64,000 nucleotides of DNA from positions 1 through 64,000 of the IMG/VR virus record IMGVR_UViG_3300028797_000009; one strand, given 5' to 3'. Below are positions 988 to 32,697 of this stretch, one piece after another. The position numbers were made by a program, and so were the translations under genes. The notes under the pieces are model-generated. The model was not told the origin of the DNA and made no database searches. It saw only the letters and a program-made list of their open reading frames with translations. The DNA is from a virus (taxonomy: Duplodnaviria > Heunggongvirae > Uroviricota > Caudoviricetes). The stretch's first letter is position 1; the number at the start of each line of letters is the position of its first letter.

Positions 988-1989
988 TCAAAAATTGTTT
1001 CGATATTTGAGGTAGATTTTGTTCGTGAATGTTCTAATCCTGCCTTTGCGAAGGTTGTATATCTGGGATTTGTCGAATTTATCTATCTCGGATGTGCCAA
1101 GTTCTTTGTCTGTAAGTTTAGAATATTTGTCGTAAAGATGATAAAGTCGTTTTGTTTCGGTGTGGATTTTGCTGTCTAATTCGTTTTGCCAAGAAAGCAT
1201 TTGCTTCATAAATTCATCGGGAATATCTAAGTCCTCAACACGACCACCTTTATAGCAAAGTTCCCATACTCGATTTTTAGTGCAATCTGAAATCATACGG
1301 TGCATATTTAGGAACCATTCGGTTTTGAGTTTTACTCTATCTTCGGTGTTTTGATTAAAAGCAACGACTCCTTCGACTTCCATTGTGAGATATTTTTTAG
1401 CTTGTTCGAATGTAAATTTTTGTGCAATTTCGAATGGGCAATTGGTAGGGTTGGGGATAACTTCGTGCCCGTTTACCCGCATAGCCCAACAGACTAATCT
1501 AGGGGTTGGATGTTTAGTGACTATAATTCCAGCATCTTCTTCAAAATTCTGAAGTAGTTCGCAAAAGTATTCAGTATTTTCCTGTAATTTGCCTCTAATT
1601 TCGTCCGTGATGAAGTTTTCAGCGAAAAAGGTATATTTATTACAGAATGAACCTCGGGATGAGGTTATAAGCCCATAATGGCTGTCTTTTTTAATGGAAA
1701 TATAGTATCCGTCTAGTTTTTCGGATATAACACAATTTTTTAGGTCAAGATGGGGAGCAAATTTTTCTGAAGCATTAAAGAATTTTTTAGGACCTTGGAT
1801 AATTATTTGGTTGTCGTCAGAAATAACTAGCCCTCTGGTGTGAATGGTAATATTATCCCATTTCTCCTCCCATGTTGTTTTTTGGGTGTAGTTATAGATG
1901 GCGATAGGTAAATCAGGATGATGGGATTTGCGAATATATCCTTTGTCGCAATAGTCGGATAGTTTAGTGAAGAACTCCTGATTAAACAT
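988..1989 (-). CDS. ATP-dependent polynucleotide ligase family (probable RNA ligase)
   Basis: 333 aa. Covalent nucleotidyltransferase motifs: I SEKLDGYY (KxDG), III TEYFCELL, IV EGVVAF, V VKLKTEW. Size and order fit Rnl-type ligases. Confidence 0.6.
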   Translation of the reverse strand: MFNQEFFTKLSDYCDKGYIRKSHHPDLPIAIYNYTQKTTWEEKWDNITIHTRGLVISDDNQIIIQGPKKFFNASEKFAPHLDLKNCVISEKLDGYYISIKKDSHYGLITSSRGSFCNKYTFFAENFITDEIRGKLQENTEYFCELLQNFEEDAGIIVTKHPTPRLVCWAMRVNGHEVIPNPTNCPFEIAQKFTFEQAKKYLTMEVEGVVAFNQNTEDRVKLKTEWFLNMHRMISDCTKNRVWELCYKGGRVEDLDIPDEFMKQMLSWQNELDSKIHTETKRLYHLYDKYSKLTDKELGTSEIDKFDKSQIYNLRKGRIRTFTNKIYLKYRNNF

Positions 1990-11211: not shown

Positions 11212-12084
11212 ATGCAGAAAATCATAATGTTGAAAGGATTGCCGGCTTCGGGGAAGAGTACTTGGGCTAGGCAAATGGTGCTGGATAATACCTCATTTGT
11301 GAGGGTTAGCAAGGATGATATTAGAAAAGATTTCTTGGGGGCTTATTCACAAAAGAAAGAGAAATTAGTCTTAAAATTGCGGGATTGTATTATTTTAGAA
11401 TCATTGAAAAACAAAAAGAGTGTGATTGTAGATGATACAAATTTGAACCCTATTCACGAGGAGCATTTAAGACAACTAGCAAAAGAAAATAATGTTGGGT
11501 TCGAGGTGAATGAATCCTTCCTAAAAGTAAGCCCAGAGGAGTGTGTAAAAAGAGATTTGGGCCGTCTAGATTCGGTTGGGGAAAGAGTCATTTATAAGAT
11601 GTATTATGATTATCTTGCCCCTGACCCGATTGTAAAAATTGAAAAAAGCAAAAAACCACGCTGTGTAATCTGTGATATTGATGGGACTTTGGCTCATAAT
11701 TTGAGTGGAAGAAATATCTATGATTACAGTCGGATTAAAGAAGATACCCCTGACCCATTGGTCTGTGCTGTGATTGACGCTTTGGATTTTACTTTTGGTG
11801 AGGATTATTTAGATATTATTATTGTTTCGGGTAGGGATGATTCCTGTCAACAAGAAACAGAAGAATGGTTAGAGAATAATGATATTCCTTATACCGCCCT
11901 GTTGATGCGTGAAACTGGGGATAAGAGAGATGATGCTGTTGTAAAAGAGGAAATCTATCATAAATATATTGAGCCGAATTATTGTGTTCTTGGCGTGATT
12001 GATGATAGGAATCGAGTAGTGCGTAAATGGGAATCGTTAGGCCTTAAAGTGATGAAGGTAGGAGGTTTATATAATGAGTTCTAA
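11212..12084 (+). CDS. pnk: Polynucleotide 5'-kinase / 3'-phosphatase (T4 Pnk-like)
   Basis: 290 aa. N-terminal P-loop LKGLPASGKSTWARQM is the kinase part. C-terminal HAD motif CVICDIDGTLAHN (DxDGT) and later VSGRDD form the phosphatase part. Architecture matches T4 Pnkp. Confidence 0.75.
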   Translation: MQKIIMLKGLPASGKSTWARQMVLDNTSFVRVSKDDIRKDFLGAYSQKKEKLVLKLRDCIILESLKNKKSVIVDDTNLNPIHEEHLRQLAKENNVGFEVNESFLKVSPEECVKRDLGRLDSVGERVIYKMYYDYLAPDPIVKIEKSKKPRCVICDIDGTLAHNLSGRNIYDYSRIKEDTPDPLVCAVIDALDFTFGEDYLDIIIVSGRDDSCQQETEEWLENNDIPYTALLMRETGDKRDDAVVKEEIYHKYIEPNYCVLGVIDDRNRVVRKWESLGLKVMKVGGLYNEF

Positions 12085-12280: not shown

Positions 12281-12498
12281 GAGATAAGAAAACAAAAAAA
12301 GAATTTGTCCGGTATTTAAGAAACTGTAAAAGTCAGAGATTTTTTCAGGCAGTAGTGAATTTTACGAAGGAAAATTTGGACTCTGATATAAAATCGGTTT
12401 ATGCTGGGAAAGACACGGTTTCTATGACGGGTAAAATCGGGAATAAATACGAGGATACATTTTTTTGGGAGTGTGATGATAAACTCGGAAGAAATTGA
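12259..12498 (+). CDS. hypothetical protein
   Basis: 79-aa ORF. Confidence 0.35.
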   Translation: MARGMGIRDKKTKKEFVRYLRNCKSQRFFQAVVNFTKENLDSDIKSVYAGKDTVSMTGKIGNKYEDTFFWECDDKLGRN

Positions 12499-13198
12499 TG
12501 TTGTTTATGTATTCAAAAATGTAGGCAGCACAGAGGAGTTGAAATATTCTATTCGTTCCGTTGCTGAAAATTGGCCTCATAGAAAAATCTGGATTATCGG
12601 GGATAGACCAATCTGGATTAATGATAATGTGGGTTTTATTAGGACTTATGGGAATAATAAAAATCGGTACAGTGATGTGAATAGTAAACTTCGGTTCGCT
12701 TGTAGGGATAGGAGAATTTCGAATCCATTTTGGTTGTTTAATGATGATTTCTTTATATTGGATAAAATGGATGTATCTTCCTATAAAGTGTTTTATGAAG
12801 GAACATTAGAAGAAAAAGAACAAAGATTGAGGAATAAGTTCCCTAGTTTGAAGACTTGGAGGTATGTTGAGGGGTTTCCTTATGCTAAGAAGGTGCTTAA
12901 AATTAATAAATGCTCCTCATTCAAAAATTTTGAAACCCACGTCCCAATGTTAATTTATAAGAAGGAGATGAAAAAAGTTCTTGATGCTTATCCAGATTGC
13001 GTATGTCGTAGGTCTATTTATATGAATTTGTATCATCAAGACGAAGGCGAGCCTCATTGTGATGTAAAGAGATATGAAAAAAATAGCATAGTGAGGATGG
13101 ATGACGTGCTTGTTTCGACTGACGAAAATACATTTAAGGGGCAAGTTGGAGATTATATAAAAAATAAATTTAATAAAAGGAGTATATATGAACGATAA
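12473..13198 (+). CDS. Stealth-family-like sugar-phosphate transferase (putative)
   Basis: 241 aa. DVVYVFKNVGS resembles Stealth CR1. EELKYSIRSVAENWPHRKIWIIGD resembles CR2 (ELRYSLRS..PW.RKI.IVT). FETHVPMLIYKK resembles CR3 (THxP). Confidence 0.4.
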   Translation: MMINSEEIDVVYVFKNVGSTEELKYSIRSVAENWPHRKIWIIGDRPIWINDNVGFIRTYGNNKNRYSDVNSKLRFACRDRRISNPFWLFNDDFFILDKMDVSSYKVFYEGTLEEKEQRLRNKFPSLKTWRYVEGFPYAKKVLKINKCSSFKNFETHVPMLIYKKEMKKVLDAYPDCVCRRSIYMNLYHQDEGEPHCDVKRYEKNSIVRMDDVLVSTDENTFKGQVGDYIKNKFNKRSIYER

Positions 13199-14443: not shown

Positions 14444-15070
14444 ATGAAAAGTCTTAAAGACGTTAAGATGGGTTGGGTAGCAGTTACCGCCATCGTTTCT
14501 TATGCGATTATCGCCGTGGTTACGGATATGTTCGCAAATAAAATGTTAAACATAGGTGGTCTAACCCTTGCTGGTGGTATTCTTTTGATTCCATTCAGTT
14601 TTACGATTAGGGATTTGATTCACAAGCAAATTGGCTTCAAGAATGTGAAGAAGGTAGTATGGGTTACTGCTTTAGTAAATCTTGTAGTAGCAATTTTGTT
14701 AATTGTTTTGGATTTGATTCCATCGGCGGTTCCTGGGCAACAGGAAGCATGGCATTCCCTTATGGGTGCTTCGTGGCGAGTAATTATTGCGTCATTTATT
14801 GCTCAGTTAGTGGCTGACCTTGGTAATACCTATGTCTATCAATGGGTGTGGGATAAATTAGGTAATAAACATGTATGGTTGAGAACTGTGGTTTCTAACC
14901 TTCCAGCAACATTCTTGGATTCAGCATTGTTTAGTTATATTGCCTTCTTGGGTGTATTGCCAGCAGATATTATCTGGGCTTCGGTGTTAAGTTCGTTCTT
15001 GGTAAAGTATGTGTTGTCGTTAGTAGCAACTCCGTTGACATATTTGAGCGAAGATAAAAAGAAGAAATAA
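14444..15070 (+). CDS. YhhQ/DUF165-family queuosine-precursor (preQ0/preQ1) transporter-like membrane protein
   Basis: 208 aa, multi-TM. DMFANKMLNIGGLTLAGGILLIPFSFTIRDLIHKQIG resembles the YhhQ core. It sits directly upstream of the queC/dpdA genes. Confidence 0.5.
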   Translation: MKSLKDVKMGWVAVTAIVSYAIIAVVTDMFANKMLNIGGLTLAGGILLIPFSFTIRDLIHKQIGFKNVKKVVWVTALVNLVVAILLIVLDLIPSAVPGQQEAWHSLMGASWRVIIASFIAQLVADLGNTYVYQWVWDKLGNKHVWLRTVVSNLPATFLDSALFSYIAFLGVLPADIIWASVLSSFLVKYVLSLVATPLTYLSEDKKKK

Positions 15071-15095
15071 AACTAACTAATCTGGGGTATAATTT

Positions 15096-15368
15096 ATGGA
15101 TATTTTAGAAATTTTCGGTTTATTGGCTACGATTACGGTGTTCGTATCGTTTTTGCCAAAAAATATTAAGTTTATTAGATGGGCGAATTTAATTGGAAGT
15201 GTCTTTTTCGTAATCTATGGTTTCGGGATTGGTGCTTTTTGGACGGGCTTTATGAATGCTTGTTTGATTTTCGTTCAGTTGTATCATCTATTTAAGATTT
15301 ATAAAGGAGAGAAAAAGTGCCAGGCAAAATCAACTCGCTCTCGGAAGAAGAGCAAAAAAGTTATCTAA
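15096..15368 (+). CDS. small membrane protein (hypothetical)
   Basis: 90 aa with two hydrophobic helices; overlaps the next gene by 52 nt. Confidence 0.35.
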   Translation: MDILEIFGLLATITVFVSFLPKNIKFIRWANLIGSVFFVIYGFGIGAFWTGFMNACLIFVQLYHLFKIYKGEKKCQAKSTRSRKKSKKVI

Positions 15369-15694
15369 ATAATACTTATGGGATTTCCTCAATTAAATTA
15401 TATGAGGAGATTCAACATAAATGCCCTCTTGGTGAGCAAGTAGGTGTCACAAAATATGAGATGACAATTCGCCCAGGTAAGAAGTTGGCTGAATTTATCG
15501 CTCTCCATTGGGAGATTCAAGAGATGATGGGACAAACCTTTACGCTTGAAAGTGGTGCGGCGAGAGTAATGGAAATTGTTAAAAAGTATTATTCAGACGC
15601 AAAAGAGATTAAAGTAAAAGCATCCTGCCCAACGAATAGGCATATGGCAGTTGATGTAGAAGTGGAATATAAGAATGAAAGTTCAACTTTATAG
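15317..15694 (+). CDS. QueF-like T-fold protein (possible QueF-L type)
   Basis: GTG start with aaaggagag RBS. HKCPLGEQVGVTKYEMTIRP lines up with the QueF CP.TGQPD...IEYIP region, but the E(S/L)K(S/A)hK NADPH motif is absent, as in QueF-L. Confidence 0.3.
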   Translation: MPGKINSLSEEEQKSYLNNTYGISSIKLYEEIQHKCPLGEQVGVTKYEMTIRPGKKLAEFIALHWEIQEMMGQTFTLESGAARVMEIVKKYYSDAKEIKVKASCPTNRHMAVDVEVEYKNESSTL

Positions 15695-16382
15695 TGGGGG
15701 GATGGATTCTTGGTTAATTAGCCATTTATGGAAGCCAGACTTAAAAATCTATATTGATATTCATGGGGATTATAGCGAGGCAGAAAAGAAAAGGTTGCCG
15801 GATGATGTAAAGATTATCGATATGCCACTTTTGGGGGAATTTGAATTACCAAACAAATTCGTTCCGTTGAGAAATCTCTATTTTATAATGATTGCTTCTC
15901 ACTATGGTGATGAGATTTGTCTTGGAGCAACTGCTGGTGATGGTAGTAAAGATAAAAATCTCGACTTTTTGAATTATATGGAAGATTTGCTCAACTTCTT
16001 CTGGAATGATAAAAAAGTTCATAAGACACTAAAAGTTGAGAAGAGATTTGCGAAGATGAGTAAGGGGGAGATTCTTCGGGAGTATCTAAAAATGGGTGGT
16101 TCGATTGAGGATGTGAGGAGAGAGTCTTTCTCTTGTTACACCCCTATTGATGACAAAGAGTGTTTTGATTGCTATCCTTGTTTCCGTAAGTTCGCTATGC
16201 TTCTTGCGAATGGTTGCGAGTATTCAGATGAAGAAATGGCGAAGATGTGGGATTTTGTCCAAAGAAAAATTATCCCAACAAAAGAGGAAGGCGGGTACGA
16301 AGGTACTTACTATACTGACCGTGGAGAAGAAAGTAAGGATTTGATAAAAGCAGTTGAAATGCTTAAAGAAAAGTATGCCTAA
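15675..16382 (+). CDS. queC: 7-cyano-7-deazaguanine synthase QueC-like
   Basis: 235 aa. PP-loop VQLYSGGMDS. C-terminal zinc-binding cluster CYTPIDDKECFDCYPCFRKFAML (four Cys, as in QueC). Confidence 0.7.
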   Translation: MKVQLYSGGMDSWLISHLWKPDLKIYIDIHGDYSEAEKKRLPDDVKIIDMPLLGEFELPNKFVPLRNLYFIMIASHYGDEICLGATAGDGSKDKNLDFLNYMEDLLNFFWNDKKVHKTLKVEKRFAKMSKGEILREYLKMGGSIEDVRRESFSCYTPIDDKECFDCYPCFRKFAMLLANGCEYSDEEMAKMWDFVQRKIIPTKEEGGYEGTYYTDRGEESKDLIKAVEMLKEKYA

Positions 16383-16710
16383 AATCGTAGCGATAGATTA
16401 TGATGATACCCTGACGGAGTATAGGCCGTTTCCAGAAACTGCTCCGTTCAGGGAAGAGGTGTTCGATTATATCCCCTTGCTAGCCGAGAAATACACGCTT
16501 GTATTATGGACGGCTCGTGAGGGGGTTTATTATGATGAATGTGTTAAGAGATTAGAAGAAGTCGGACTTTTAGATTATATTCAGTTAGATAATGATAAAT
16601 TCAAACACGGTAAAACTGGGAAAATTGTAGCCGATTACTATATAGACGATAAAGCCCTCTTTGGTATAATTGACTGGAAAGAAATTTATGAATATCTGAT
16701 GGAGGTTTAA
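16354..16710 (+). CDS. small HAD-superfamily phosphatase-like protein
   Basis: 118 aa. Motif I IVAIDYDDTLTE (DxDxT); later VLWTAREG. Confidence 0.4.
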   Translation: MKCLKKSMPKIVAIDYDDTLTEYRPFPETAPFREEVFDYIPLLAEKYTLVLWTAREGVYYDECVKRLEEVGLLDYIQLDNDKFKHGKTGKIVADYYIDDKALFGIIDWKEIYEYLMEV

Positions 16711-17531
16711 TGCTTTTATTCTTTGCTGGGGCTGAGGGGGATGATTTTGTAAAAATACTTCGGGATAATGGTGTTACTAATGCTCTCGAAAGTTTTTGGT
16801 CTCTAAAAATGAAGAACCCATGTCATCATCGTATATTTGAGAATCATCTGTTGGATTCGGGTGGTTTTGCTGCTAGGCAGCGTGGTGTGGAAGTTGATGT
16901 CGTAAAGTATGCTGAATATATTAAAAAATATGATGTGAAGTTTGCGTTTAATCTGGATGTGCGTGATTTAGATATTAGTTTGGCTAATCAGCGTTATTTA
17001 GAGAAGAATACTAATGCGTATATTATTCCGATTTATCACGGTCCGGAATGGGTGAATGAAGATACTAGGGATTTGTTGGAGTATTATATCGAGTTCTATC
17101 CATATATCGGGCTTGGTGGTATTGCTGGGAAAGAAACTGGTAAGCAAAATTTGGAGAGGTTTCTAAATTATGTGTTCAAGAGGACTAGGGACAAAACTAT
17201 GGTCCACGGCTTAGGTGTTACAAGTAAGAGGATGTTATATAATTATCCATTTGCGACTTGTGATTCTACGAGTTGGCTTGCCGTTAGCCAATATGGGAGA
17301 AGTGCTGTATATAGCGAAAATATGAGCAGGGTTCGTAACAAGCGTTTGAATTGGAAAGAGCGTATATTTGATGATGTTGTCTTTTATAAAAATTTGAATG
17401 ATGAGATTACGAGAATTTGGAAGAAAAGAGGGGTAAATTGGGGGGATAAATTAGACTATGAAAAATTAATTTCTATGAGGAAAGAAGCACCAAGTTATAG
17501 AGAATGGAAAGAAGGAAGAAATGCGAAATAA
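16710..17531 (+). CDS. dpdA: tRNA-guanine transglycosylase-like protein (DpdA-like 7-deazaguanine DNA transglycosylase)
   Basis: 273 aa. HLLDSGGFAA matches the TGT catalytic DSGGFQ motif; YIGLGGIAG matches the TGT substrate-pocket GLAVGG. No CxCxxC..H zinc site, as in phage and bacterial DpdA. Confidence 0.6.
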   Translation: MLLFFAGAEGDDFVKILRDNGVTNALESFWSLKMKNPCHHRIFENHLLDSGGFAARQRGVEVDVVKYAEYIKKYDVKFAFNLDVRDLDISLANQRYLEKNTNAYIIPIYHGPEWVNEDTRDLLEYYIEFYPYIGLGGIAGKETGKQNLERFLNYVFKRTRDKTMVHGLGVTSKRMLYNYPFATCDSTSWLAVSQYGRSAVYSENMSRVRNKRLNWKERIFDDVVFYKNLNDEITRIWKKRGVNWGDKLDYEKLISMRKEAPSYREWKEGRNAK

Positions 17532-18123
17532 AGATTTTGACCCGAGTAGGATAAAAAAGGTTTCAATTGATGATGTAGAACCCAACGATTATAATCCGAA
17601 GAAGAAGGATACGGCTGAATATAAAAAGATTGTGGAATCATTAAAATTGAATGGTTTGAAGCAACCTATTTTTGTTAGAGAAGTCGAAGAAAATGATAAA
17701 TATGTCATCGTTGATGGCGAGCAACGTTGGACAGCGGCGAAAGAGTTGGGGTATAAAGAAATTTATATCTACGATTTTGGGTATATCTCAGAAGAAGAAG
17801 CAAAGGCATTGACAATCTGGATGGAAGTCCAGGTGCCATTTGATGAGTTAGAATTGGCTACTTTAATTGTTGAGATGAAAGATTTAGATATTGATTTACC
17901 GTATACCAAAAAAGAGATTGATGATTTTGTGGCTATGGCTGATTTTGATTTCACTACGCCTGTTAAGGAGGCGAAACAGGATGATGGTTTAATGGAATTA
18001 AAGATTCGAATGACTAAATCCCAATTTGATTTCGTAAAAGATTGTGTAGATAAAGTGGCTAAAAGTAAAAATTGCGAGCAAGCAGAAGCCCTGATGATTT
18101 TGTGTGGAGGTGTAGATGAATAA
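17521..18123 (+). CDS. ParB-like nuclease-domain protein (DpdB-like?) paralog 1
   Basis: 200 aa. IFVREVEENDKYVIVDGEQRWTAAKELGY is the ParB/Srx GxxR-box region. Confidence 0.55.
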   Translation: MRNKDFDPSRIKKVSIDDVEPNDYNPKKKDTAEYKKIVESLKLNGLKQPIFVREVEENDKYVIVDGEQRWTAAKELGYKEIYIYDFGYISEEEAKALTIWMEVQVPFDELELATLIVEMKDLDIDLPYTKKEIDDFVAMADFDFTTPVKEAKQDDGLMELKIRMTKSQFDFVKDCVDKVAKSKNCEQAEALMILCGGVDE

Positions 18124-18733
18124 AGATTTTAACCCAGAGAATATTAAAAAAGTTCCAATCGAGTTGATTCACCCGAATGGATATAACCCAAAAGCAGTTG
18201 AGAGTAAAGAATATTATGATGTTCTTGAAAGCTTGAAACAAAATGGGTTGATGAGTTTTATTTTTGTTCGAGAAGTTGACGGGATAGATGGGTTCGAGAT
18301 TGTAGATGGTGAGCATAGGTATTTAGCCGCAAAAGAATTAGGTTATAGCGAGATGTATATTTATAATCTTGGTAGAATTTCCGAAGAAGAGGCAAAAGCC
18401 CTGACTTTGTGGTTTGAAGTTCAAGTTCCGTTCGATAATGTCGAGTTGGCTCCGATTGTGGTCGAGCTGACGAAATTGGATATTAAATTGCCTTATACAG
18501 AAGAGCAAATCGAAAAATTCTCCGAATTGCAGAAGTTTGATTTTGACGACTATGATGAGGATGAACCCGTAAAAGAAGAGGAAGGATTTAATAATTTTAC
18601 GGTTAGGGTAACGCAAGAACAGTTCAATTTTATTCAAAATAAAATTAAAGAAGTTATGGATTTTGAGGGGGTGAGCGAAGGGCGAGCGTTGGAATTGATT
18701 GTCGCCGATGGATTCGCAGGGTTTGAAGAGTAA
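18116..18733 (+). CDS. ParB-like nuclease-domain protein paralog 2
   Basis: 205 aa, clearly paralogous to the previous gene (IFVREVDGIDGFEIVDGEHRYLAAKELGY; identical domain order; acidic C-terminal tail). Confidence 0.55.
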   Translation: MNKDFNPENIKKVPIELIHPNGYNPKAVESKEYYDVLESLKQNGLMSFIFVREVDGIDGFEIVDGEHRYLAAKELGYSEMYIYNLGRISEEEAKALTLWFEVQVPFDNVELAPIVVELTKLDIKLPYTEEQIEKFSELQKFDFDDYDEDEPVKEEEGFNNFTVRVTQEQFNFIQNKIKEVMDFEGVSEGRALELIVADGFAGFEE

Positions 18734-21557: not shown

Positions 21558-22235
21558 ATGGGAACAACTAAACAAGGTGCTTTTGAGATGAAATATCATC
21601 ATATCGATGCACCAACAAAACAAGATGATGAATATGGCCGAGAACATCATAAAAGGATTTTAAGTCTTAATGATTTCCGAACGCCGTTATTAGAATATTT
21701 GAGCGATAAACCGTGGATTATGAAGCGTAAATTGGATGGCGAAAATTTGCGTGTTATGTGGGATGGCGAGCAAGCATTGTGGAATGGTAAAAGCGATAAT
21801 TTCCAATGTAGTTCGGCTTTAACGGATTATATGAATAATACTTTTCTTGAAGAAGTTTTTGAGGAAAAGTTTGGTCGAGATAAGCGAGTTTATATCTTCG
21901 GTGAGCATATGGGTCCGAAGTCGCAGGGGAATGAATTGGGATTAGGAAATAGTGAATGTGTTATTTATGATGTAAAGGTTAATGGCACTTGGTTAAAACC
22001 ATTGGATATTATTAGTGTGGCAGGGTATTTTGGGTGTAAAACTTGCTACGATTTTATGGGTGATATTCCAATGGATTTGAGTAAGACATTATCTGAGTAT
22101 ATTGCCGAGGTGTCCTCGGGGATTTATAAAGATTGGGAGGGGATTGTTTGCGTCCCATTAGTAGAATGCTGTTATCCAACAGGGGAGCGTGTGATTTGTA
22201 AGATTAAAAATAAAGACTATTTGAAAAAGGATTAG
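21558..22235 (+). CDS. Minimal ATP-dependent ligase-family nucleotidyltransferase (RNA/DNA ligase-like)
   Basis: 225 aa. Motif I MKRKLDGENLRV (KxDG), III RVYIFGEHMG, IV WEGIVCVP, V ICKIKNKDY. aaaaggagg RBS. Confidence 0.55.
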   Translation: MGTTKQGAFEMKYHHIDAPTKQDDEYGREHHKRILSLNDFRTPLLEYLSDKPWIMKRKLDGENLRVMWDGEQALWNGKSDNFQCSSALTDYMNNTFLEEVFEEKFGRDKRVYIFGEHMGPKSQGNELGLGNSECVIYDVKVNGTWLKPLDIISVAGYFGCKTCYDFMGDIPMDLSKTLSEYIAEVSSGIYKDWEGIVCVPLVECCYPTGERVICKIKNKDYLKKD

Positions 22236-27744: not shown

Positions 27745-27908
27745 AACCTACTAAACGAGCAAAATATTATATCGCAGGGTATAAGGATGGATTTTGGCAA
27801 GGGTATCATTACGCTATTAGCAAGCTTATTGATGGCAATGATGCAGACGAGATGGCAACTGAGAAAACTAAACACATAACTGATTTTAAGCTGAAGGAAA
27901 AAGAATGA
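27741..27908 (+). CDS. hypothetical protein
   Basis: 55 aa (below the track cutoff): MKPTKRAKYYIAGYKDGFWQGYHYAISKLIDGNDADEMATEKTKHITDFKLKEKE. Confidence 0.3.
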   Translation: MKPTKRAKYYIAGYKDGFWQGYHYAISKLIDGNDADEMATEKTKHITDFKLKEKE

Positions 27909-28306
27909 GAGAACAAAAGTTTAGGGTGTGGGATAAAGACCTCGCTAAATATCTTGAAGGATGCGAAATTGACGGCCTGATGGCCGAACTTTCCTCTGAA
28001 GGTGATGGTAGAGGTATAGTTATTAAACAGATATGTCCTGCTCGCTATAAATTTGAGCAATACACAGGTCTAAAAGACAAGAATGAAAAAGAGATATATG
28101 ATGGGGATATTGTAGAGGCACGCTGGTATAGAGCAAAACACGCACGATTCGATACGAAAGGTAAAGTCAAGTTTAGCGAAGGTTGGTTCTATATAGATGA
28201 TGACCCAGACGGAGATGATAGCCTTGGTGTGCCGATTCATAACTGTTATAACATTAAGGTTATCGGTAATGTACACGAAAACCCTGAACTATTGGAGGAA
28301 GAATGA
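27905..28306 (+). CDS. YopX-family protein (paralog 1)
   Basis: 133 aa. KFRVWDK...YTGLKDKNEKEIYDGDIVE...VIGNVHENPELL. Confidence 0.6.
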   Translation: MREQKFRVWDKDLAKYLEGCEIDGLMAELSSEGDGRGIVIKQICPARYKFEQYTGLKDKNEKEIYDGDIVEARWYRAKHARFDTKGKVKFSEGWFYIDDDPDGDDSLGVPIHNCYNIKVIGNVHENPELLEEE

Positions 28307-28608
28307 GTAAGTATGGAAAATGCCATTGTCAAGGTGTAAATTTTGGCTCGTATGGGAATCAAGTTAGTATGAGGCATCCATCTGGGGAATGGGTGTGTAT
28401 TGATTGTTGTATTGCAACAGAAATAGCTGACTTATGGCATGAAGGTGTAAATACTTTAGGAAGCTGTTGTGGGCATAGGAAGCTCGCCCCTACTGTCGTG
28501 GTGGCTAAGGAAAGCTATCAGAAGATGACAGAATTAGGCTATCAGAGCAAAACTAATAAATTCGGGGTAGTTGAGTGGCAACTAAAAACTAAATGGGGTA
28601 AAGAATGA
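28303..28608 (+). CDS. Cys-rich hypothetical protein
   Basis: 101 aa with 9 Cys: CHCQG..CIDCC..CCGH. Confidence 0.4.
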   Translation: MSKYGKCHCQGVNFGSYGNQVSMRHPSGEWVCIDCCIATEIADLWHEGVNTLGSCCGHRKLAPTVVVAKESYQKMTELGYQSKTNKFGVVEWQLKTKWGKE

Positions 28609-29042
28609 GAAGTTTGAAGTTTAGAGCATGGGATAAAGTCACAAAGAGATATTGGAATGTTGGTGGGCTTGGTTTTGAAAAAGATAGGCTTATCGAGGTG
28701 TATCTTGATAATTATCCTACAACTTTAGAGGGTAATGAAGATTGTAAAAAACCAGACGAGGTTATTCTCGAGCAATATATAGGCCTGAAAGATAAGGATG
28801 GTAATGAGATATACGAGGGGGATATAGTGCAAATAGATAGTATAGATGAACTGAGGGTGGGTTTTGTCGACCTATTATATGACCAGTATTGTATTGTATA
28901 TGGCGAGGATGATGAGGGGCGTAAAATCGTGGCTGAGTTTTATTACTATTCTAAGCCAGAGGAAAATTGTAAGGTTATCGGTAACATTAATGAAAATCCT
29001 GAGTTATTGGAGGGCGAGAATGAGCAAAAAAACAGAGGATGA
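28605..29042 (+). CDS. YopX-family protein (paralog 2)
   Basis: 145 aa. LKFRAWDK...YIGLKDKDGNEIYEGDIVQ...VIGNINENPELL. Confidence 0.6.
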   Translation: MRSLKFRAWDKVTKRYWNVGGLGFEKDRLIEVYLDNYPTTLEGNEDCKKPDEVILEQYIGLKDKDGNEIYEGDIVQIDSIDELRVGFVDLLYDQYCIVYGEDDEGRKIVAEFYYYSKPEENCKVIGNINENPELLEGENEQKNRG

Positions 29043-29430: not shown

Positions 29431-30333
29431 ATGAGTAAGAAGAAAAACAAATTTCTAAAACATTTTATGTTTTCGCCAATCGTGGATAAGAAAAGGCCAG
29501 GCGATTTTGATGGCGATATGACTACTTATGAGATGTACGAGGAGGCAAGGGAAAAATCTTTTGGCAGGGTTGTTAGAACTTATGTAGAACTTGTCGCATT
29601 GCTTATTGTAGTTATTATTGTATTGACGGGTTCTTGGTTCACTGTTGGTGCTGGTGAGATTGGTGTAGTCACAAGGTTTGGCGAAGTCCAACGAATCGCC
29701 GAGTCTGGTTTCAATTTTAAGTTGCCATTGGTTGATTCTGTGGTGATTATGGAAACACGTATCCAGAAAGAAGAAGTAAAATCTTCGGCGGTAACGAAGG
29801 ATTTGCAGGATGCAGAAGTCACCTTAGCGTTGAATTATTCGATTGATAAAGAAACTGCGTTGAAGTTGTATAAAGAAGTAGGTATTAATTATAAAGATAA
29901 TATTATTAATCCTGTCCTTCACGAATCAGTAAAAGCAGGGACGGCACAATATACAGCCGAAGGCTTAATTACTAGTCGTTCAGAGGTAAAAGAGAAGATT
30001 TTGGAAGTAGTTAAAAATCGTCTCGAAGGTTATGGAATTGTAATTTCTGATTTGAATATTACAAACCTAAATTTCTCTGATGCTTTTAATTCTGCAATTG
30101 AGGAAAAAGCAGTCGCTCAACAACAAGTTGAAAAAGCAAAACAGGATTTGGAAAAGGTAAAGATTGAGGCAGAACAGAAGATTGCGAAAGCCCAAGCAGA
30201 AGCCGAAGCACAACGGCTACAGCAACAAACGCTCACCGAACTAATGATTAAAAAAATGTGGATTGAGAAATGGAACGGTGAGTTGCCAAAAACTAGTGCA
30301 GGGGATTCTCAGTTTTTAATCGACCTCAACTAG
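29431..30333 (+). CDS. SPFH/band-7 (prohibitin/HflKC-like) membrane protein
   Basis: 300 aa. N-terminal TM VELVALLIVVIIVLTGSWF, band-7 core GEIGVVTRFGEVQRIAESGFNFKLPLVDSV, then a long Ala/Gln/Glu-rich coiled coil. Confidence 0.65.
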   Translation: MSKKKNKFLKHFMFSPIVDKKRPGDFDGDMTTYEMYEEAREKSFGRVVRTYVELVALLIVVIIVLTGSWFTVGAGEIGVVTRFGEVQRIAESGFNFKLPLVDSVVIMETRIQKEEVKSSAVTKDLQDAEVTLALNYSIDKETALKLYKEVGINYKDNIINPVLHESVKAGTAQYTAEGLITSRSEVKEKILEVVKNRLEGYGIVISDLNITNLNFSDAFNSAIEEKAVAQQQVEKAKQDLEKVKIEAEQKIAKAQAEAEAQRLQQQTLTELMIKKMWIEKWNGELPKTSAGDSQFLIDLN

Positions 30334-30657: not shown

Positions 30658-30734
30658 CAGGGAGTAGAAAAGTTGGAGTTTTCGCCTCGCCTGGAACGAG
30701 GAGGTCGCAAGTTCAAGTCTTGCCTCCCTGACCA
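30658..30734 (+). tRNA. tRNA, anticodon TGG (Pro-like), atypical anticodon loop
   Basis: Hand fold: acceptor cagggag/ctccctg, A73, CCA encoded; D stem gaaa/tttc; anticodon stem cctcg/cgagg with loop cctggaa; T arm gcaag-ttcaagt-cttgc. C33 and A37 are unusual for tRNA-Pro. Confidence 0.55.
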
Positions 30735-30743
30735 ATATAGATT

Positions 30744-30820
30744 GGCTCGCTAGCCCAACTGGTAGAGGCATATGTCTTAGGAACATATTAGTCAGAGTTC
30801 GAATCTCTGGTGAGCCACCA
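30744..30820 (+). tRNA. tRNA, anticodon TAG (Leu-reading) with a short (class-I-like) variable arm
   Basis: Acceptor ggctcgc/gtgagcc (one G-U), A73, CCA; anticodon stem tatgt/acata, loop cttagga (U33, UAG, G37); variable region only ~5 nt; T arm cagag-ttcgaat-ctctg. Confidence 0.5.
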
Positions 30821-30824
30821 ATAT

Positions 30825-30899
30825 TGGCTAGTAGCTCAATGGTAGAGCATTCGGCTGTTAACCGAAGGGTTACAGGTTCGACCCCTGTCTAGCCAGCCA
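30825..30899 (+). tRNA. tRNA-Asn (GTT)
   Basis: Acceptor tggctag/ctagcca, G73, CCA; D arm gctc-aatggta-gagc; anticodon stem ttcgg/ccgaa, loop ctgttaa; T arm acagg-ttcgacc-cctgt. Confidence 0.7.
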
Positions 30900-30973
30900 A
30901 GGTTCCTAGTTCAATGGTAGAATGAAAGTCTCCAAAACTTTTGATGGTAGTTCGAATCTATCGGAGCCTGCCA
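30900..30973 (+). tRNA. tRNA-Trp (CCA)
   Basis: Acceptor aggttcc/ggagcct (one G-U), G73, CCA; anticodon stem aaagt/acttt, loop ctccaaa; T arm atggt? then agttcgaatct. Confidence 0.6.
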
Positions 30974-31811: not shown

Positions 31812-32044
31812 TTTATACCTTCATCAAAGGGGAGGGCGGTGTGATAACGGCTATATAGACGACGGTTGAAAGTAGTAAAGCCACACCACGTCGTGTAACT
31901 TATAAAGACTTGCGCAGGTTTTTATAATACGGTGGAGATAGTCCCTGAATAGCAACTTCTCATCTGGGGTGAAAAGCCCAAAGAAGAACTATATAACCAC
32001 CATTCGTGCTTTATCTTTCCGGAAGCAAGAGTGGTGGTTTTTTG
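31812..32044 (+). promoter_or_regulatory. structured 5' leader with intrinsic terminator (riboswitch- or attenuator-like) upstream of the GT2 gene
   Basis: Promoter ttgattttttgaaagttttgatttagaatg at ~31775-31805. Then about 230 nt with no credible ORF, hairpins (acgacg..cgtcgt), and a long terminal stem aaccaccattcgtgc...gcaagagtggtggtt followed by a T-run ending 14 nt before the GT2 start. Confidence 0.35.
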
Positions 32045-32058
32045 ATATAATTTTAACG

Positions 32059-32697
32059 ATGAATAAACTTTCAATTATAATTCCTCACTACAATACTCCG
32101 AAGTTGCTGATGGTGCTATTAGACAACTTGGTGGAGCAACAGAAGAAATTCCCGCAAACAGAAATTATTGTGGTGGATGATGGTTCTACATTTGGCGTGG
32201 GATGGTTAGGAAGATATAAAACGGTCAGAGTTATAAAACAAAGAAATCAAGGGGTTTCGTCTGCAAGAAATCGAGGATTGAAGTTTGCCGAGGGCAACTA
32301 TATTACTTTTATCGATTCTGATGATAATGTGGTAGATGATTATCTAGAAAAGATTTATAGAGAGATTAATAAAGGTGGCTGGGATTATATGTATTTTAAG
32401 TTCTGGCTATGTGATAAGGGCGAGCAAAGGCCGTGTAAGTTTCGGGACCAATTATTGAAAAATTATACTTGTTGGGGGTATGTCTATACTCGAAGGTGTA
32501 TAAATGGGGAAAGGTTTAACACTAACTTAAATGTTGGGGAAGATACGGATTGGCTTCATAGGGTATTAGTGGGGAAGAAGTGCCATTTCTTGGATGATTT
32601 TCTTTACTACTATCAATGGGATGCCAATAGAGAAAGCCTCTGTAAAAGGTTTAGGAGAGGCGAAATCGGCAAATATAAGGTTCCCCCTACTAGTTAA
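32059..32697 (+). CDS. Family-2 glycosyltransferase (GT-A)
   Basis: Start MNKLSIIIPHYNTPKLL (ORF track 31969 extended 5'). IIVVDDGST, then DxD-like FIDSDDNVV; classic GT2 N-terminal half. Confidence 0.65.
   Translation: MNKLSIIIPHYNTPKLLMVLLDNLVEQQKKFPQTEIIVVDDGSTFGVGWLGRYKTVRVIKQRNQGVSSARNRGLKFAEGNYITFIDSDDNVVDDYLEKIYREINKGGWDYMYFKFWLCDKGEQRPCKFRDQLLKNYTCWGYVYTRRCINGERFNTNLNVGEDTDWLHRVLVGKKCHFLDDFLYYYQWDANRESLCKRFRRGEIGKYKVPPTS

What the first reader, a model, noticed from the sequence alone, without database searches (positions are those of the whole stretch)
14444..18733. 7-deazaguanine DNA-modification cluster: transporter, QueF-like, QueC, HAD, DpdA-like TGT and two ParB-like paralogs
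Contiguous genes encode a YhhQ-like precursor transporter, a T-fold QueF-like protein lacking the NADPH motif (QueF-L-like), QueC (PP-loop plus Cys4), a DpdA-like transglycosylase (DSGGF catalytic Asp, no zinc site) and two ParB-like proteins. In the bacterial Dpd systems, ParB-like DpdB works with DpdA to insert preQ0 into DNA. Phage DpdA clusters are known, but a tandem DpdB-like pair plus a salvage transporter and no FolE/QueD/QueE is unusual. It implies that precursor (CDG, preQ0 or preQ1) is scavenged from the host or medium. The phage genome is probably hypermodified (dPreQ0, dADG or dG+), which would also explain the absence of restriction-evasion genes.
Basis: partly seen in the sequence, partly recalled or inferred. 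Interest (0 to 1): 0.8.

Follow-up and report, generated by a model that had tools for sequence, protein, structure and literature searches.

The report
Phage 7-deazaguanine DNA-modification operon, salvage type
An uncultured ~86-kb phage carries a tight eight-gene operon that most likely swaps guanines in its own DNA for a 7-deazaguanine base built from scavenged precursor, and its base-swapping enzyme belongs to a compact class that is almost always encoded next to a ParB-like partner, here present in two copies.

Summary
The contiguous + strand genes are:
- a YhhQ transporter
- a QueF/QueF-L-like T-fold protein
- a QueC-like ATPase
- a small HAD phosphatase
- a zinc-less TGT-fold DpdA
- two ParB N-domain paralogs, 49% identical

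No FolE, QueD or QueE was found in 82.5 kb of the ~85.7-kb phage genome.

New points from this work:
- The ParB proteins are not DpdB orthologues (14 bits against a cut-off of 300).
- ParB linkage is nevertheless the rule for this compact DpdA class. Of 40 distinct DpdAs, 37 have a ParB gene directly downstream, against 2 of 39 for the other DpdAs retrieved (mainly 9g/Queuovirinae-like).
- Tandem ParB pairs, and one doubled DpdA-ParB unit, recur in several lineages.
- Clusters with QueC, DpdA and YhhQ but no FolE/QueD/QueE nearby recur in at least four lineages.
- HAD is fused to QueC in relatives.
- The T-fold protein keeps the thioimide Cys but lacks the QueF/QueF-L catalytic Asp and the NADPH motif, so the final base cannot be predicted.

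Verdict: a real feature and a new variant of a known kind. The chemistry and the role of ParB are inferred, not shown.

The parts
14444..15070 (+). YhhQ/COG1738 7-deazaguanine precursor transporter (208 aa)
   Evidence: Pfam Vut_1 at 1e-34. TIGR00697 at 94.9 bits, above its cut-off of 50.95. Multiple hydrophobic segments. Conserved at the head of the cluster in L001-L007, L018 and L019.
15096..15368 (+). 90-aa membrane protein with about three hydrophobic helices and a basic tail. It resembles one half of YgjV and may be a second transporter subunit.
   Evidence: Pfam Imp-YgjV at 23.8 bits against a cut-off of 23.5, matching the C-terminal half of the model. Hydropathy profile. Homologue present directly after yhhQ in L001-L007, L018 and L019, and without yhhQ in L020/L021.
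15317..15694 (+). QueF/QueF-L-like T-fold protein (125 aa, GTG start). The N-terminus MPGKIN is conserved in relatives.
   Evidence: 81 homologues, none with a Pfam domain. Invariant residues include H34, C36, P37, E59, H64, E78, C104, N107 and H109. AlphaFold2 pLDDT 91.9. Foldseek top hit is QueF-L 5jyx, TM 0.74/0.88. 5 of 42 members of the extended family hit Pfam QueF. hhalign maps C36, E59 and E78 onto QueF Cys55, Glu78 and Glu97; the position of Asp62 is Gly43.
15675..16382 (+). QueC-like PP-loop ATPase (235 aa) with a Cys4 zinc motif
   Evidence: Pfam QueC at 54.5 bits. TIGR00364 at 36.8 bits, below its cut-off of 150. SGGMDS at 7-12 and C154/C163/C166/C169. 654 homologues, all listed ones carrying PF06508. 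Only 27-29% identical to the QueC of the closest phage relatives.
16354..16710 (+). Small cap-less HAD-type phosphatase. The listed ORF is 118 aa; the likely true start is the ATG at 16375.
   Evidence: DYDDT motif. NF046079 BT0820-family at 4e-15, below its cut-off. phrog_1238 at 2.5e-18. A homologous HAD domain is fused to the N-terminus of QueC in L023 (E 1e-12) and more weakly in L019 and L018. The L001 QueC begins MRRVYDMDGV....
16710..17531 (+). Compact DpdA-like DNA-guanine transglycosylase (273 aa)
   Evidence: phrog_887 at 3e-36. About 30% identity to annotated phage DpdAs including 9g, CAjan and Iggy. hhalign to mycobacteriophage CRB2 DpdA gives probability 99.3%. AlphaFold2 pLDDT 92.9, and all 50 listed Foldseek hits are TGTs. 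Invariant residues include D49, S50, G51, D83, H110, H166, G167 and D185. Only two Cys. No Pfam, NCBIfam, PADLOC-DpdA or PDB sequence hit.
17521..18123 (+). ParB N-domain protein 1 (200 aa). Its start overlaps the end of dpdA by 11 nt.
   Evidence: Pfam ParB_N at 54.8 bits. GEQRWTA matches GxxRxxA. PDB sequence hits to ParB/Noc N-domains at 6e-8. DpdB models score only about 14 bits. All motifs conserved across 44 DpdA-linked ParBs are retained.
18116..18733 (+). ParB N-domain protein 2 (205 aa), a tandem paralogue
   Evidence: Pfam ParB_N at 43.4 bits. 49% identical to ParB1 over the full length. GEHRYLA motif. Tandem pairs also occur in L002-4, L018, L048 and L049.

Best explanation
This is a translationally coupled phage operon that replaces guanines in the phage's own double-stranded DNA with a 7-deazaguanine base after replication. 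The phage cannot make the deazapurine skeleton, because it lacks FolE, QueD and QueE.

Proposed steps:
1. YhhQ, possibly together with the small three-helix membrane protein, imports a precursor from the medium. Alternatively the phage draws on the host pool.
2. The QueC-like ATPase, working with the HAD phosphatase, converts a carboxy or amido precursor (CDG or ADG) to preQ0, or otherwise tops up the preQ0 pool.
3. The compact, zinc-less DpdA exchanges G for the base in DNA. The ParB-like proteins assist it, acting as nucleotide-dependent DNA-loading or targeting partners. This is analogous to the DpdB ATPase of bacterial Dpd systems but not orthologous to it. The two paralogues may act as a heterodimer or as alternative partners.
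4. The QueF-L-like T-fold enzyme attacks the nitrile through its conserved Cys and converts preQ0 or dPreQ0 to the final base. My ranking is dG+ first, then dPreQ1 or dADG.

The modified DNA would resist host restriction.

**Shown here:** gene identities, folds, conserved residues, absence of the early pathway, and conserved gene linkage.

**Inferred:** every biochemical step, the nature of the imported compound, the role of ParB and the final base.
For: - Gene identities and folds.
- Operon packing, with gaps of -52 to +25 nt.
- No FolE, QueD or QueE in 82.5 of ~85.7 kb.
- The same gene order in related metagenomic phages L001-L007 and L018. A relative, L019, carries QueE, QueD and FolE between the small membrane protein gene and the T-fold gene. 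This places the T-fold enzyme in a preQ0 context.
- DpdA-ParB linkage: 37 of 40 distinct compact-class DpdAs have a ParB_N gene starting -400 to +2000 nt downstream, against 2 of 39 for the other DpdAs. The linkage holds whether the pair lies beside the terminase gene (L014-L017) or 15 kb from it (the window).
- The pair appears twice in tandem in L031 (DpdA-ParB-DpdA-ParB). ParB alone is duplicated in several lineages, and both copies are kept: the L002 and L018 P1 copies are 57% identical and the P2 copies 58%, against 33% between P1 and P2 within L002.
- Both window paralogues keep GxxRxxA and all family-conserved motifs.
- Bacterial DpdA needs the ParB-superfamily ATPase DpdB to insert preQ0 (PMC10164549).
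- ParB domains are often fused or linked to phage DNA-modifying enzymes (PMC12783734; phrog_498).
- HAD-QueC fusions in relatives link those two genes.
- Clusters with QueC, DpdA and YhhQ but no early genes nearby recur in L066, L072 and L103. This argues that QueC is needed in the salvage route.
- Every phage shown so far to carry 7-deazaguanines in its DNA encodes a DpdA (PMC10516641).
Against: - No chemistry was measured.
- DpdA is recognised only by a PHROG profile, by weak similarity to phage DpdAs and by fold. Pfam TGT, NCBIfam and PADLOC DpdA models do not hit it.
- The ParB proteins fail the DpdB models. ParB-like genes are common in phages for other reasons, such as packaging, partition or nuclease activity.
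- I know of no report, and found none, that phage DpdAs tested by expression in E. coli need a ParB partner. This rests on my recollection of that work.
- If YhhQ imports preQ0 as in E. coli, QueC would be unnecessary, so the imported compound is unclear.
- The T-fold protein has an invariant Gly where QueF and QueF-L have the catalytic Asp, so it may not perform either known reaction.
- The ParB HMM was seeded from this family. It could miss unrelated ParB types next to other DpdAs, which would inflate the contrast.
Confidence: 0.65

Rival explanations
1. The ParB-like proteins do not help DpdA. One option is ParB-type nucleases that attack unmodified host DNA while the phage's deazaguanine DNA is immune, giving a phage-side self/non-self pair. 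Another is partition, packaging or transcription factors that merely sit beside dpdA.
For: - PHROG families hit by both proteins include 'ParB-like partition nuclease' and 'nuclease'.
- In L014-L017 the ParB gene lies just upstream of the terminase/portal module.
- I know of no report that phage DpdA1 enzymes need a ParB partner when expressed in E. coli (my recollection).
Against: - The linkage follows DpdA rather than the terminase: in the window the terminase gene is 15 kb away.
- The linkage holds for 37 of 40 compact-class DpdAs, often with overlapping stop and start codons.
- DpdA and ParB appear twice in tandem as a unit in L031.
- The nuclease version still implies a functional tie to the modification.
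Confidence: 0.2
2. The pathway is as described, but the end product is not dG+. One option is that the T-fold enzyme reduces the nitrile, giving dPreQ1 as in Streptococcus phage Dp-1. A second is that it hydrates the nitrile, giving dADG. A third is that it makes a base not yet described. A fourth is that it is inactive and the DNA carries dPreQ0.
For: - Phage proteins that HHpred called QueF-L turned out to accompany dPreQ1 in Dp-1 and HVTV-1 (PMC6884629).
- The catalytic Asp position is an invariant Gly.
- A second Cys (C104) and three His (H34, H64, H109) are invariant in the close family. This is unlike QueF-L, which has a single conserved Cys.
- In L001 an SHMT gene sits inside the cluster, hinting at one-carbon chemistry in some relatives.
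Against: - Dp-1 gp1 is a canonical 173-aa QueF with the ESKSLKLY NADPH motif. The window protein is 125 aa and has I and H in place of the two Lys.
- Its closest solved structure is QueF-L.
Confidence: 0.3
3. The module acts on RNA, not DNA. In this reading a phage TGT-like enzyme and salvage genes remodel queuosine-family modification of host or phage tRNAs to tune translation. The phage carries four tRNAs and a tRNA-repair gene set.
For: - The fold is that of tRNA-guanine transglycosylases.
- tRNA genes lie at 30658-30973, and PNKP plus two RNA ligase genes are present.
Against: - The protein lacks the zinc subdomain of TGT.
- It groups with phage DpdAs.
- Every phage DpdA examined so far accompanies DNA modification (PMC10516641).
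- It is coupled to DNA-binding ParB domains.
- Of the four phage tRNAs, only tRNA-Asn(GTT) has a Q-type anticodon.
Confidence: 0.06
4. The cluster is a decaying remnant of a full preQ0 pathway. Having lost FolE, QueD and QueE, it no longer modifies anything.
For: Relatives such as L019-L021 carry the full pathway.
Against: - All eight ORFs are intact and tightly packed.
- Catalytic residues are invariant across dozens of homologues.
- The same reduced layout is conserved across diverged relatives whose DpdAs are 28-54% identical to the window's.
- The reduced layout arose in at least four lineages, each time together with a transporter.
Confidence: 0.04

Closest known systems
Phage DpdA1 clusters of Queuovirinae (Enterobacteria phage 9g, CAjan, Seurat, Pseudomonas phage Iggy, Alteromonas phage R7M)
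   Same: DpdA homologue with about 30% identity over the catalytic core. DSGG and HG.G motifs and a D-S-x-x-W-type motif are shared. It sits next to a QueC-family gene. The purpose is post-replicative G to 7-deazaguanine exchange for restriction evasion (PMC6884629).
   Different: Those clusters carry FolE, QueD, QueE and a Gat-QueC fusion. Their DpdAs are longer, about 305-315 aa in the annotated isolates. They have no ParB neighbour and, in the three regions I inspected, no transporter. The window DpdA is 273 aa, has a distinct N-terminal 46 residues and is ParB-coupled.
Streptococcus phage Dp-1 queuosine-like cluster (gp1-gp7; DNA carries dPreQ1)
   Same: A phage cluster that combines a QueF-family T-fold protein, QueC, a precursor transporter and DpdA (PMC6884629).
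   Different: Dp-1 has the full FolE/QueD/QueE set. Its transporter is QueT rather than YhhQ. Its QueF is canonical, at 173 aa with the NADPH motif. It has no ParB and no HAD gene.
[quoted passage not shown]
   Same: A ParB-superfamily gene lies immediately adjacent to dpdA in a phage. The CRB2 authors already suggested it could be a dpdB homologue (PMC6392294).
   Different: ParB lies upstream rather than downstream, and there is a single copy. Its motif is GNHTLLA, with no Arg at the GxxRxxA position. It is barely similar to the window ParBs (E 0.058). The DpdA is 329 aa and the full pathway is present.
Bacterial Dpd system, modification half (DpdA, DpdB, DpdC; Salmonella Montevideo)
   Same: A TGT-fold DpdA with an Asp general acid and an Asp nucleophile, working with a ParB-superfamily NTPase. 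yhhQ is sometimes embedded in dpd clusters (PMC10164549, PMC5699537).
   Different: DpdB is a DGQQR/DndB-type protein of about 350-370 aa with an SspE-like C-terminal domain. The window proteins are 200-aa canonical ParB N-domain proteins that fail the DpdB models. The window has no DpdC and no restriction genes DpdD-K.
Archaeal archaeosine synthase QueF-L (Pyrobaculum calidifontis; 5jyx, 5k0p)
   Same: Best structural match, with TM 0.74/0.88 and rmsd 1.7 A. Similar small size. The Cys lies in a CP motif. The QueF NADPH motif is absent.
   Different: Sequence identity is only 17%. The general acid/base Asp seven residues after the Cys is an invariant Gly. There are extra invariant His and Cys residues. 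The presumed substrate is DNA or the free base, not tRNA.

Membership tests
DpdA (DNA-guanine transglycosylase, TGT superfamily) | TGT-type TIM-barrel fold | tested here: met
   AlphaFold2 pLDDT 92.9 and pTM 0.91. All 50 listed Foldseek PDB hits are bacterial, archaeal or eukaryotic TGTs, with probability 1.0 and TMq about 0.64.
DpdA (DNA-guanine transglycosylase, TGT superfamily) | Catalytic Asp in the DSGG motif plus a nucleophile Asp. In S. Montevideo DpdA the active-site residues are Asp95, Asp130, His181 and Asp256. | tested here: met
   D49 (DSGGF), D83, H110 and D185 (DSTSW) are invariant in 34 homologues. The spacings 49 to 83 and 110 to 185 match 95 to 130 and 181 to 256. The motifs align with CRB2 DpdA at 99.3% probability. 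The residue mapping to the solved DpdA rests on spacing only.
DpdA (DNA-guanine transglycosylase, TGT superfamily) | Recognition by curated sequence models (Pfam TGT PF01702, NCBIfam and PADLOC DpdA) | tested here: not met
   No hit in Pfam, NCBIfam or PADLOC DpdA, or in PDB sequence or profile searches. The only hits are phrog_887 at 3e-36 and phrog_7068 at 6e-12.
DpdA (DNA-guanine transglycosylase, TGT superfamily) | Exchanges guanine in DNA for a 7-deazaguanine | not testable with these tools
   Needs an enzyme assay or nucleoside mass spectrometry.
DpdB (ParB-superfamily ATPase partner of bacterial DpdA) | Matches the DpdB equivalog model and has the architecture of about 350-370 aa with an SspE-like C-terminal domain | tested here: not met
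   NF041060 scores 14.1 bits against a cut-off of 300. PADLOC DpdB scores 13.6 bits. Both hit ParB1 only, over about 40 residues. The proteins are 200 and 205 aa.
DpdB (ParB-superfamily ATPase partner of bacterial DpdA) | DGQQR/DGQHR nucleotide-binding motif | tested here: inconclusive
   The window proteins have DGEQR (ParB1) and DGEHR (ParB2). These also fit the ParB GxxRxxA box (PMC10164549).
DpdB (ParB-superfamily ATPase partner of bacterial DpdA) | Encoded next to dpdA | tested here: met
   There is an 11-nt overlap with dpdA in the window. ParB lies downstream of 37 of 40 compact-class DpdAs.
ParB N-terminal (ParB/Srx) domain, PF02195 | Pfam gathering score and the GxxRxxA box | tested here: met
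   54.8 and 43.4 bits against a cut-off of 26.3. GEQRWTA and GEHRYLA. PDB sequence hits to ParB, Noc and Spo0J N-domains. NTPase activity was not testable.
QueC (7-cyano-7-deazaguanine synthase) | PP-loop SGGxDS and the C-terminal Cys4 zinc motif | tested here: met
   SGGMDS at 7-12 and C154-x8-C163-x2-C166-x2-C169. Pfam QueC at 54.5 bits against a cut-off of 22.
QueC (7-cyano-7-deazaguanine synthase) | Equivalog-level match (TIGR00364 or NF008317) | tested here: not met
   36.8 bits against 150.3, and 24.2 bits against 378. The family assignment is safe. The exact reaction (preQ0 synthase, ADG-stopping QueC*, or an amidine-forming variant) is not.
QueF-L (archaeosine synthase, T-fold amidinotransferase) | T-fold with closest similarity to QueF-L or QueF | tested here: met
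   Foldseek hits 1-12 are QueF-L, followed by QueF, DHNA and FolE. 5 of 42 extended-family members hit Pfam QueF PF14489, best E 3.3e-5.
QueF-L (archaeosine synthase, T-fold amidinotransferase) | Conserved thioimide-forming Cys (Cys21 in QueF-L, Cys55 in QueF) | tested here: met
   C36 in the CP(L)G motif is invariant in 25 close and 42 distant homologues. hhalign aligns it to the QueF Cys.
QueF-L (archaeosine synthase, T-fold amidinotransferase) | General acid/base Asp seven residues after the Cys | tested here: not met
   Position C36+7 is G43, invariant in 25 of 25 close homologues. It is not an Asp in the consensus of the about-104-aa relatives. The mapping comes from gap-free but low-probability hhalign alignments. 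The nearly invariant E40 might substitute. I therefore do not file the protein as QueF-L.
QueF-L (archaeosine synthase, T-fold amidinotransferase) | Lacks the QueF NADPH motif E(S/L)K(S/A)hK(L/Y)(Y/F/W) | tested here: met
   The aligned segment is E59-F-I-A-L-H-W-E. The Glu is kept and both Lys are replaced. The motif definition is from my own knowledge. Dp-1 gp1 shows ESKSLKLY at this position.
YhhQ/COG1738 queuosine-precursor transporter | Equivalog model TIGR00697 | tested here: met
   94.9 bits against a cut-off of 50.95. Substrate specificity (preQ0, preQ1, queuine or CDG) is not testable here.
HAD-superfamily phosphatase (BT0820-like, cap-less) | DxDxT nucleophile motif and a family model | tested here: inconclusive
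   DYDDT at residue 15. NF046079 scores 56.4 bits against a cut-off of 165. phrog_1238 at 2.5e-18.

The most novel reading that the evidence does not exclude
The compact phage DpdA is an obligate two-component enzyme. Its ParB-like partner would be a CTP- or ATP-gated DNA clamp that loads DpdA onto DNA or moves it along, and that sets which guanines are exchanged. Paralogous ParBs, or duplicated DpdA-ParB units, would widen the range of target motifs or raise the density of modification. In addition, the Asp-less QueF-L-like enzyme, together with the QueC-HAD pair, would make a 7-deazaguanine derivative from salvaged CDG or ADG that is not among the eight known in DNA.
Probability: 0.2. Interest if true: 0.8.

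Novelty: new variant of a known kind. Interest (0 to 1): 0.6.

Why it matters
Phage 7-deazaguanine DNA modification is an established anti-restriction strategy, but two questions remain open. One is why bacterial DpdA needs the ParB-like ATPase DpdB. The other is why the DpdA3 and DpdA4 enzymes could not be made to work in E. coli (PMC10516641).

The first result here bears on both. A large, uncultured class of compact phage DpdAs is almost always encoded with its own ParB-type partner, and that partner is unrelated to DpdB at the family level. This points to convergent or ancient use of a ParB module to bring a transglycosylase to double-stranded DNA. It also gives a concrete three-protein set (DpdA, ParB1, ParB2) to test.

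The second result concerns salvage. Clusters that keep YhhQ, QueC and DpdA but lack FolE/QueD/QueE recur in several lineages. This suggests that gut or rumen phages exploit the environmental or host deazapurine pool, and that the salvaged compound may enter the pathway upstream of preQ0.

The third result concerns chemistry. The Asp-less QueF-L-like family and the HAD-QueC fusion are candidates for undescribed steps.

For metagenomics, such genomes are likely to be modified at G positions. This affects restriction-based and nanopore-based analyses.

Tried and rejected
- **Nucleotide search of phage isolates.** Megablast of the 4.3-kb region found nothing.
- **First viral-contig scan.** A scan with the single DpdA protein found nothing. 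The alignment-based scan worked.
- **PDB sequence and profile searches.** For DpdA they gave only chance hits. For the T-fold protein they gave spurious polyubiquitin repeat hits. Fold comparison was needed for both.
- **T-fold protein among phage isolates.** tblastn with the T-fold protein and with a distant relative (P0159) found no match.
- **The 'FolE+QueF' Pfam label on 286-aa proteins of L014 and others.** I first took these as a source of QueF sequences. They are a fusion of FolE with an N-terminal domain that, by its VDDLYDSGTT motif, looks like a phosphoribosyltransferase.
- **HAD labels.** My 'HAD' HMM became contaminated by HAD-QueC fusion proteins and then labelled all QueCs. Those labels are not used. 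The fusion itself was verified by BLASTP.
- **Riboswitch search.** No preQ1 riboswitch or any other Rfam family lies upstream of yhhQ.
- **Promoter and terminator scans.** The sigma-70 promoter and terminator scans were not clearly above chance, and Bacteroidota-type promoters are not covered.
- **T-fold protein as a minimal FolE or a DpdL-like decarboxylase.** Rejected. L019 has a true FolE beside it. The best fold matches are QueF-L and QueF. The QueD/DpdL His motifs are absent.
- **ParB as a terminase-associated gene.** Rejected as the main reading, because the linkage follows DpdA when the terminase gene is 15 kb away.

Full report
**1. The observation**

The region 14444-18733 holds eight + strand ORFs with gaps of -52 to +25 nt, which is an operon-like, translationally coupled layout.

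- **YhhQ, 14444-15070.** Pfam Vut_1 at 1e-34. TIGR00697 'queuosine precursor transporter' at 94.9 bits against a cut-off of 50.95.
- **QueC-like, 15675-16382.** It passes the Pfam QueC threshold at 54.5 bits. It has the PP-loop SGGMDS and a C-x8-C-x2-C-x2-C motif. It stays far below the QueC equivalog cut-offs.
- **HAD, 16354-16710.** A small HAD-type protein with a DYDDT motif.
- **Two ParB N-domain proteins, 17521-18123 and 18116-18733.** They are 49% identical over their full length, and both carry a GxxRxxA box.
- **Missed gene, 15096-15368.** A 90-aa protein with about three hydrophobic helices and a basic tail. It weakly resembles one half of YgjV and is conserved next to yhhQ in relatives.

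**2. The two genes without curated-model hits**

*DpdA-like protein, 16710-17531.* It has no Pfam, NCBIfam, PADLOC-DpdA or PDB-sequence match. Other evidence places it clearly.
- It hits phrog_887 at 3e-36.
- It is about 30% identical to annotated DpdAs of phages 9g, CAjan, Seurat and Iggy.
- It aligns to mycobacteriophage CRB2 DpdA with 99.3% probability.
- A confident AlphaFold2 model (pLDDT 92.9) has tRNA-guanine transglycosylases as all 50 listed PDB neighbours.
- D49 (DSGGF), D83, H110, H166 and D185 (DSTSW) are invariant in 34 homologues.
- The spacing of D49, D83, H110 and D185 mirrors Asp95, Asp130, His181 and Asp256 of the solved Salmonella DpdA (PMC10164549). This mapping is an inference.
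- There are only two Cys, so there is no TGT-type zinc site.

*T-fold protein, 15317-15694.* It belongs to a family of 81 metagenomic proteins, none with a Pfam domain.
- Its model (pLDDT 91.9) matches archaeosine synthase QueF-L best, with TM 0.74/0.88 and rmsd 1.7 A. QueF, DHNA and FolE follow.
- An exhaustive profile search found about 70 more distant proteins of about 104 aa.
- Of 42 sampled members of this extended family, 5 hit Pfam QueF.
That mapping puts C36, E59 and E78 on QueF Cys55, Glu78 and Glu97. Both Lys of the NADPH motif are replaced.
- Position Cys+7, the general acid Asp of QueF and QueF-L (PMC5485725), is an invariant Gly.

I therefore call it QueF/QueF-L-like, not a QueF-L.

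**3. Absence of the early pathway**

Loci recovered with the window's terminal proteins are 100% identical to the window over their overlaps of 11-12 kb. They belong to contigs of 85,696 and 85,682 bp from two samples, so the window is part of a phage of about 85.7 kb.

The evidence for absence is as follows.
- Pfam scans of 40 window ORFs in all found no GTP cyclohydrolase I, QueD/PTPS or QueE radical-SAM protein.
- The precomputed Pfam labels on both flanks show none either.
- HMMs I built from 60-70 phage FolE, QueD and QueE sequences found none in 82.5 kb.

No preQ1 riboswitch precedes yhhQ.

**4. Comparative context**

The same order recurs in related uncultured phages: SSB, YhhQ, small membrane protein, an optional dCMP-deaminase-like gene, T-fold, QueC, DpdA, then one or two ParB genes (L001-L007, L018).

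A relative from a different sample, L019, has QueE, QueD and FolE between the small membrane protein gene and the T-fold gene. This places the T-fold enzyme in a preQ0 context.

An alignment-based scan of IMG/VR returned 80 DpdA loci.
- Forty distinct DpdAs align to the window protein from residue 5 or earlier to residue 230 or later (median 270 aa). Of these, 37 have a ParB_N gene starting -400 to +2000 nt downstream on the same strand. One of the three exceptions is cut by the contig end.
- Among the 39 other DpdAs (median 309 aa, aligning mostly over residues 47-196), only 2 have a ParB gene.
- Annotated Queuovirinae regions confirm the absence of ParB there.

The coupling holds whether the pair lies beside the terminase gene (L014-L017) or 15 kb from it (the window).

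L031 has DpdA-ParB-DpdA-ParB. L002-4, L018, L048, L049 and the window have DpdA-ParB-ParB. In L002 and L018 the two copies form old orthologous groups: 57-58% identity within a group against 33-36% between groups. In L049 the duplication is younger, at 57%.

All 44 distinct linked ParBs share an NPK box, the GxxRxxA box, a third conserved segment and a C-terminal LPY...FD segment. Both window paralogues keep all of these.

**5. Relation to DpdB and prior notice**

Bacterial DpdA requires the ParB-superfamily ATPase DpdB to insert preQ0 (PMC10164549). The window ParBs score only about 14 bits on the DpdB models and are half the length. They resemble chromosomal ParB/Noc N-domains and the ParB domains fused to phage DNA methyltransferases. 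The relation to DpdB is therefore analogy within a superfamily.

ParB domains are recurrent companions of phage DNA-modifying enzymes (PMC12783734).

In cultured phages, mycobacteriophage CRB2 has ParB-like gp1 directly upstream of DpdA, and its authors suggested a dpdB homologue (PMC6392294). That ParB is barely similar to the window's.

The two main surveys of phage 7-deazaguanine systems do not mention ParB in their main text.

**6. QueC, HAD and the salvage logic**

HAD domains homologous to the window HAD are fused to the N-terminus of QueC in L023 (E 1e-12) and more weakly in L019 and L018. The 343-aa QueC of L001 begins with a DMDGV HAD motif. The two proteins therefore probably work together. 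A pyrophosphatase or phosphatase role is my speculation.

The window QueC is only 27-29% identical to the QueC of its closest phage relatives, although the T-fold protein (about 65%) and DpdA (42-48%) are much closer. It belongs to a large family of 654 homologues. The gene seems to have been replaced rather than lost.

Clusters with QueC, DpdA and YhhQ but no FolE/QueD/QueE within the fetched flanks occur independently in three other places:
- L066 and L072, with a distant T-fold relative and no ParB;
- L103, with ParB-methyltransferase fusions upstream.

Persistent retention of QueC in salvage-type clusters suggests one of two things. Either the salvaged or host-derived compound enters upstream of preQ0 (CDG or ADG), or QueC has a second role. 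E. coli YhhQ is known for preQ0 and preQ1 transport, so this remains unresolved.

Phage-encoded YhhQ and dependence on host or exogenous precursor were already discussed by Hutinet et al. (PMC6884629). Dp-1 carries a QueT transporter in its cluster.

**7. Most likely mechanism and rivals**

The best-supported reading has four steps:
1. precursor import or host supply;
2. conversion by QueC(-HAD);
3. ParB-assisted DpdA exchange of G in phage DNA;
4. conversion of the nitrile by the T-fold enzyme.

The result would be restriction-resistant DNA.

I put about 0.65 on the overall model and about 0.5-0.55 on ParB being a true DpdA partner. No single end product gets more than about 0.35; dG+ is first, then dPreQ1, dADG or dPreQ0.

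The rivals, set out in full in their own section, are:
- ParB as an unrelated protein or a nuclease;
- a different end product;
- tRNA as the target;
- a decaying remnant.

**8. Host and setting**

The terminase is closest (27-32% identity) to those of phages of Bacteroidota: Cellulophaga, Flavobacterium, Bacteroides and Polaribacter. This is only a weak hint of a Bacteroidota host.

**9. Verdict**

It is a new variant of a known kind of system. Its value lies in four things:
- the near-obligate ParB coupling of a compact DpdA class, with recurrent duplication;
- the salvage architecture;
- a diverged QueF-L-like family;
- the HAD-QueC link.

None of the biochemistry is shown.

Noticed in passing
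window 4000-46000: Very strong + strand GC skew of 0.26-0.46, with G far exceeding C on the coding strand, across the early and middle genes. It drops to about 0.1-0.2 in the structural region after 46 kb.
   Followed up: no
window 11212-12084 (+), 988-1989 (-), 21558-22235 (+): A tRNA-repair-like gene set: a polynucleotide kinase-phosphatase (AAA_33 plus HAD_PNKP), an Rnl1-type RNA ligase and a second RNA_ligase-family protein. This suggests a counter-defence against host anticodon nucleases.
   Followed up: no
window 12473-13198 (+) and 31969-32697 (+): A Stealth_CR2-like protein (below the Pfam cut-off) and a family-2 glycosyltransferase. Relatives L005/L006 have a GT2 gene right after the gene syntenic with the Stealth-like one, upstream of SSB. 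The target could be DNA or the cell surface.
   Followed up: no
window 30658-30973: Four clustered tRNA genes: Pro-TGG, Leu-TAG, Asn-GTT and Trp-CCA. Asn-GTT is a queuosine-type anticodon.
   Followed up: no
window whole; L008-L010 flanks: The phage is about 85.7 kb. No DNA polymerase, primase or replicative helicase was recognised by Pfam among the ORFs scanned or in the precomputed flank labels. Only SSB, Rad52, a YqaJ exonuclease and an RNase H-like exonuclease were found. Several very large ORFs (1023-1351 aa) have no Pfam hit or were not scanned.
   Followed up: partly
L001 12438-13790: A serine hydroxymethyltransferase gene sits between dpdA and parB in a 108-kb relative, a contig binned as 'Acetobacter sp.' MAG. 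This hints at folate one-carbon chemistry, such as methyl- or formyl-preQ1, in that phage.
   Followed up: no
L002 7519-7986; L005 7534-8001; L101 9986-10429: A dCMP/cytidine-deaminase-family gene is embedded in the deazaguanine cluster of several relatives. It lies between the small membrane protein gene and the T-fold gene, or after FolE. It is absent from the window.
   Followed up: no
L014 3427-4287 and about 25 other loci: The FolE genes in many DpdA loci are about 280-300 aa, because an N-terminal domain with a VDDLYDSGTT motif is fused to GTP cyclohydrolase I. From that motif I take it to be phosphoribosyltransferase-like. The precomputed weak 'QueF' Pfam label there probably reflects FolE/QueF homology.
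   Followed up: partly
window 15675-16382 compared with L001 and L002 QueC: The window QueC is only 27-29% identical to the QueC of the closest phage relatives. It is 46-74% identical to hundreds of other metagenomic QueCs. This indicates replacement of the gene by a different QueC lineage within a conserved cluster.
   Followed up: partly
L103 2417-4995: Two adjacent large proteins with ParB N-domains lie just upstream of a QueC, GT2, DpdA, YhhQ cluster. One is a ParB_N plus N6_N4 methyltransferase fusion. The gene after them is a separate N6_N4 methyltransferase. This is another case of ParB domains accompanying DNA-modifying enzymes.
   Followed up: no
window 27905-28306, 28605-29042, 29431-30333: Two YopX-family paralogues and an SPFH/Band-7 protein lie just upstream of the tRNA cluster.
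   Followed up: no
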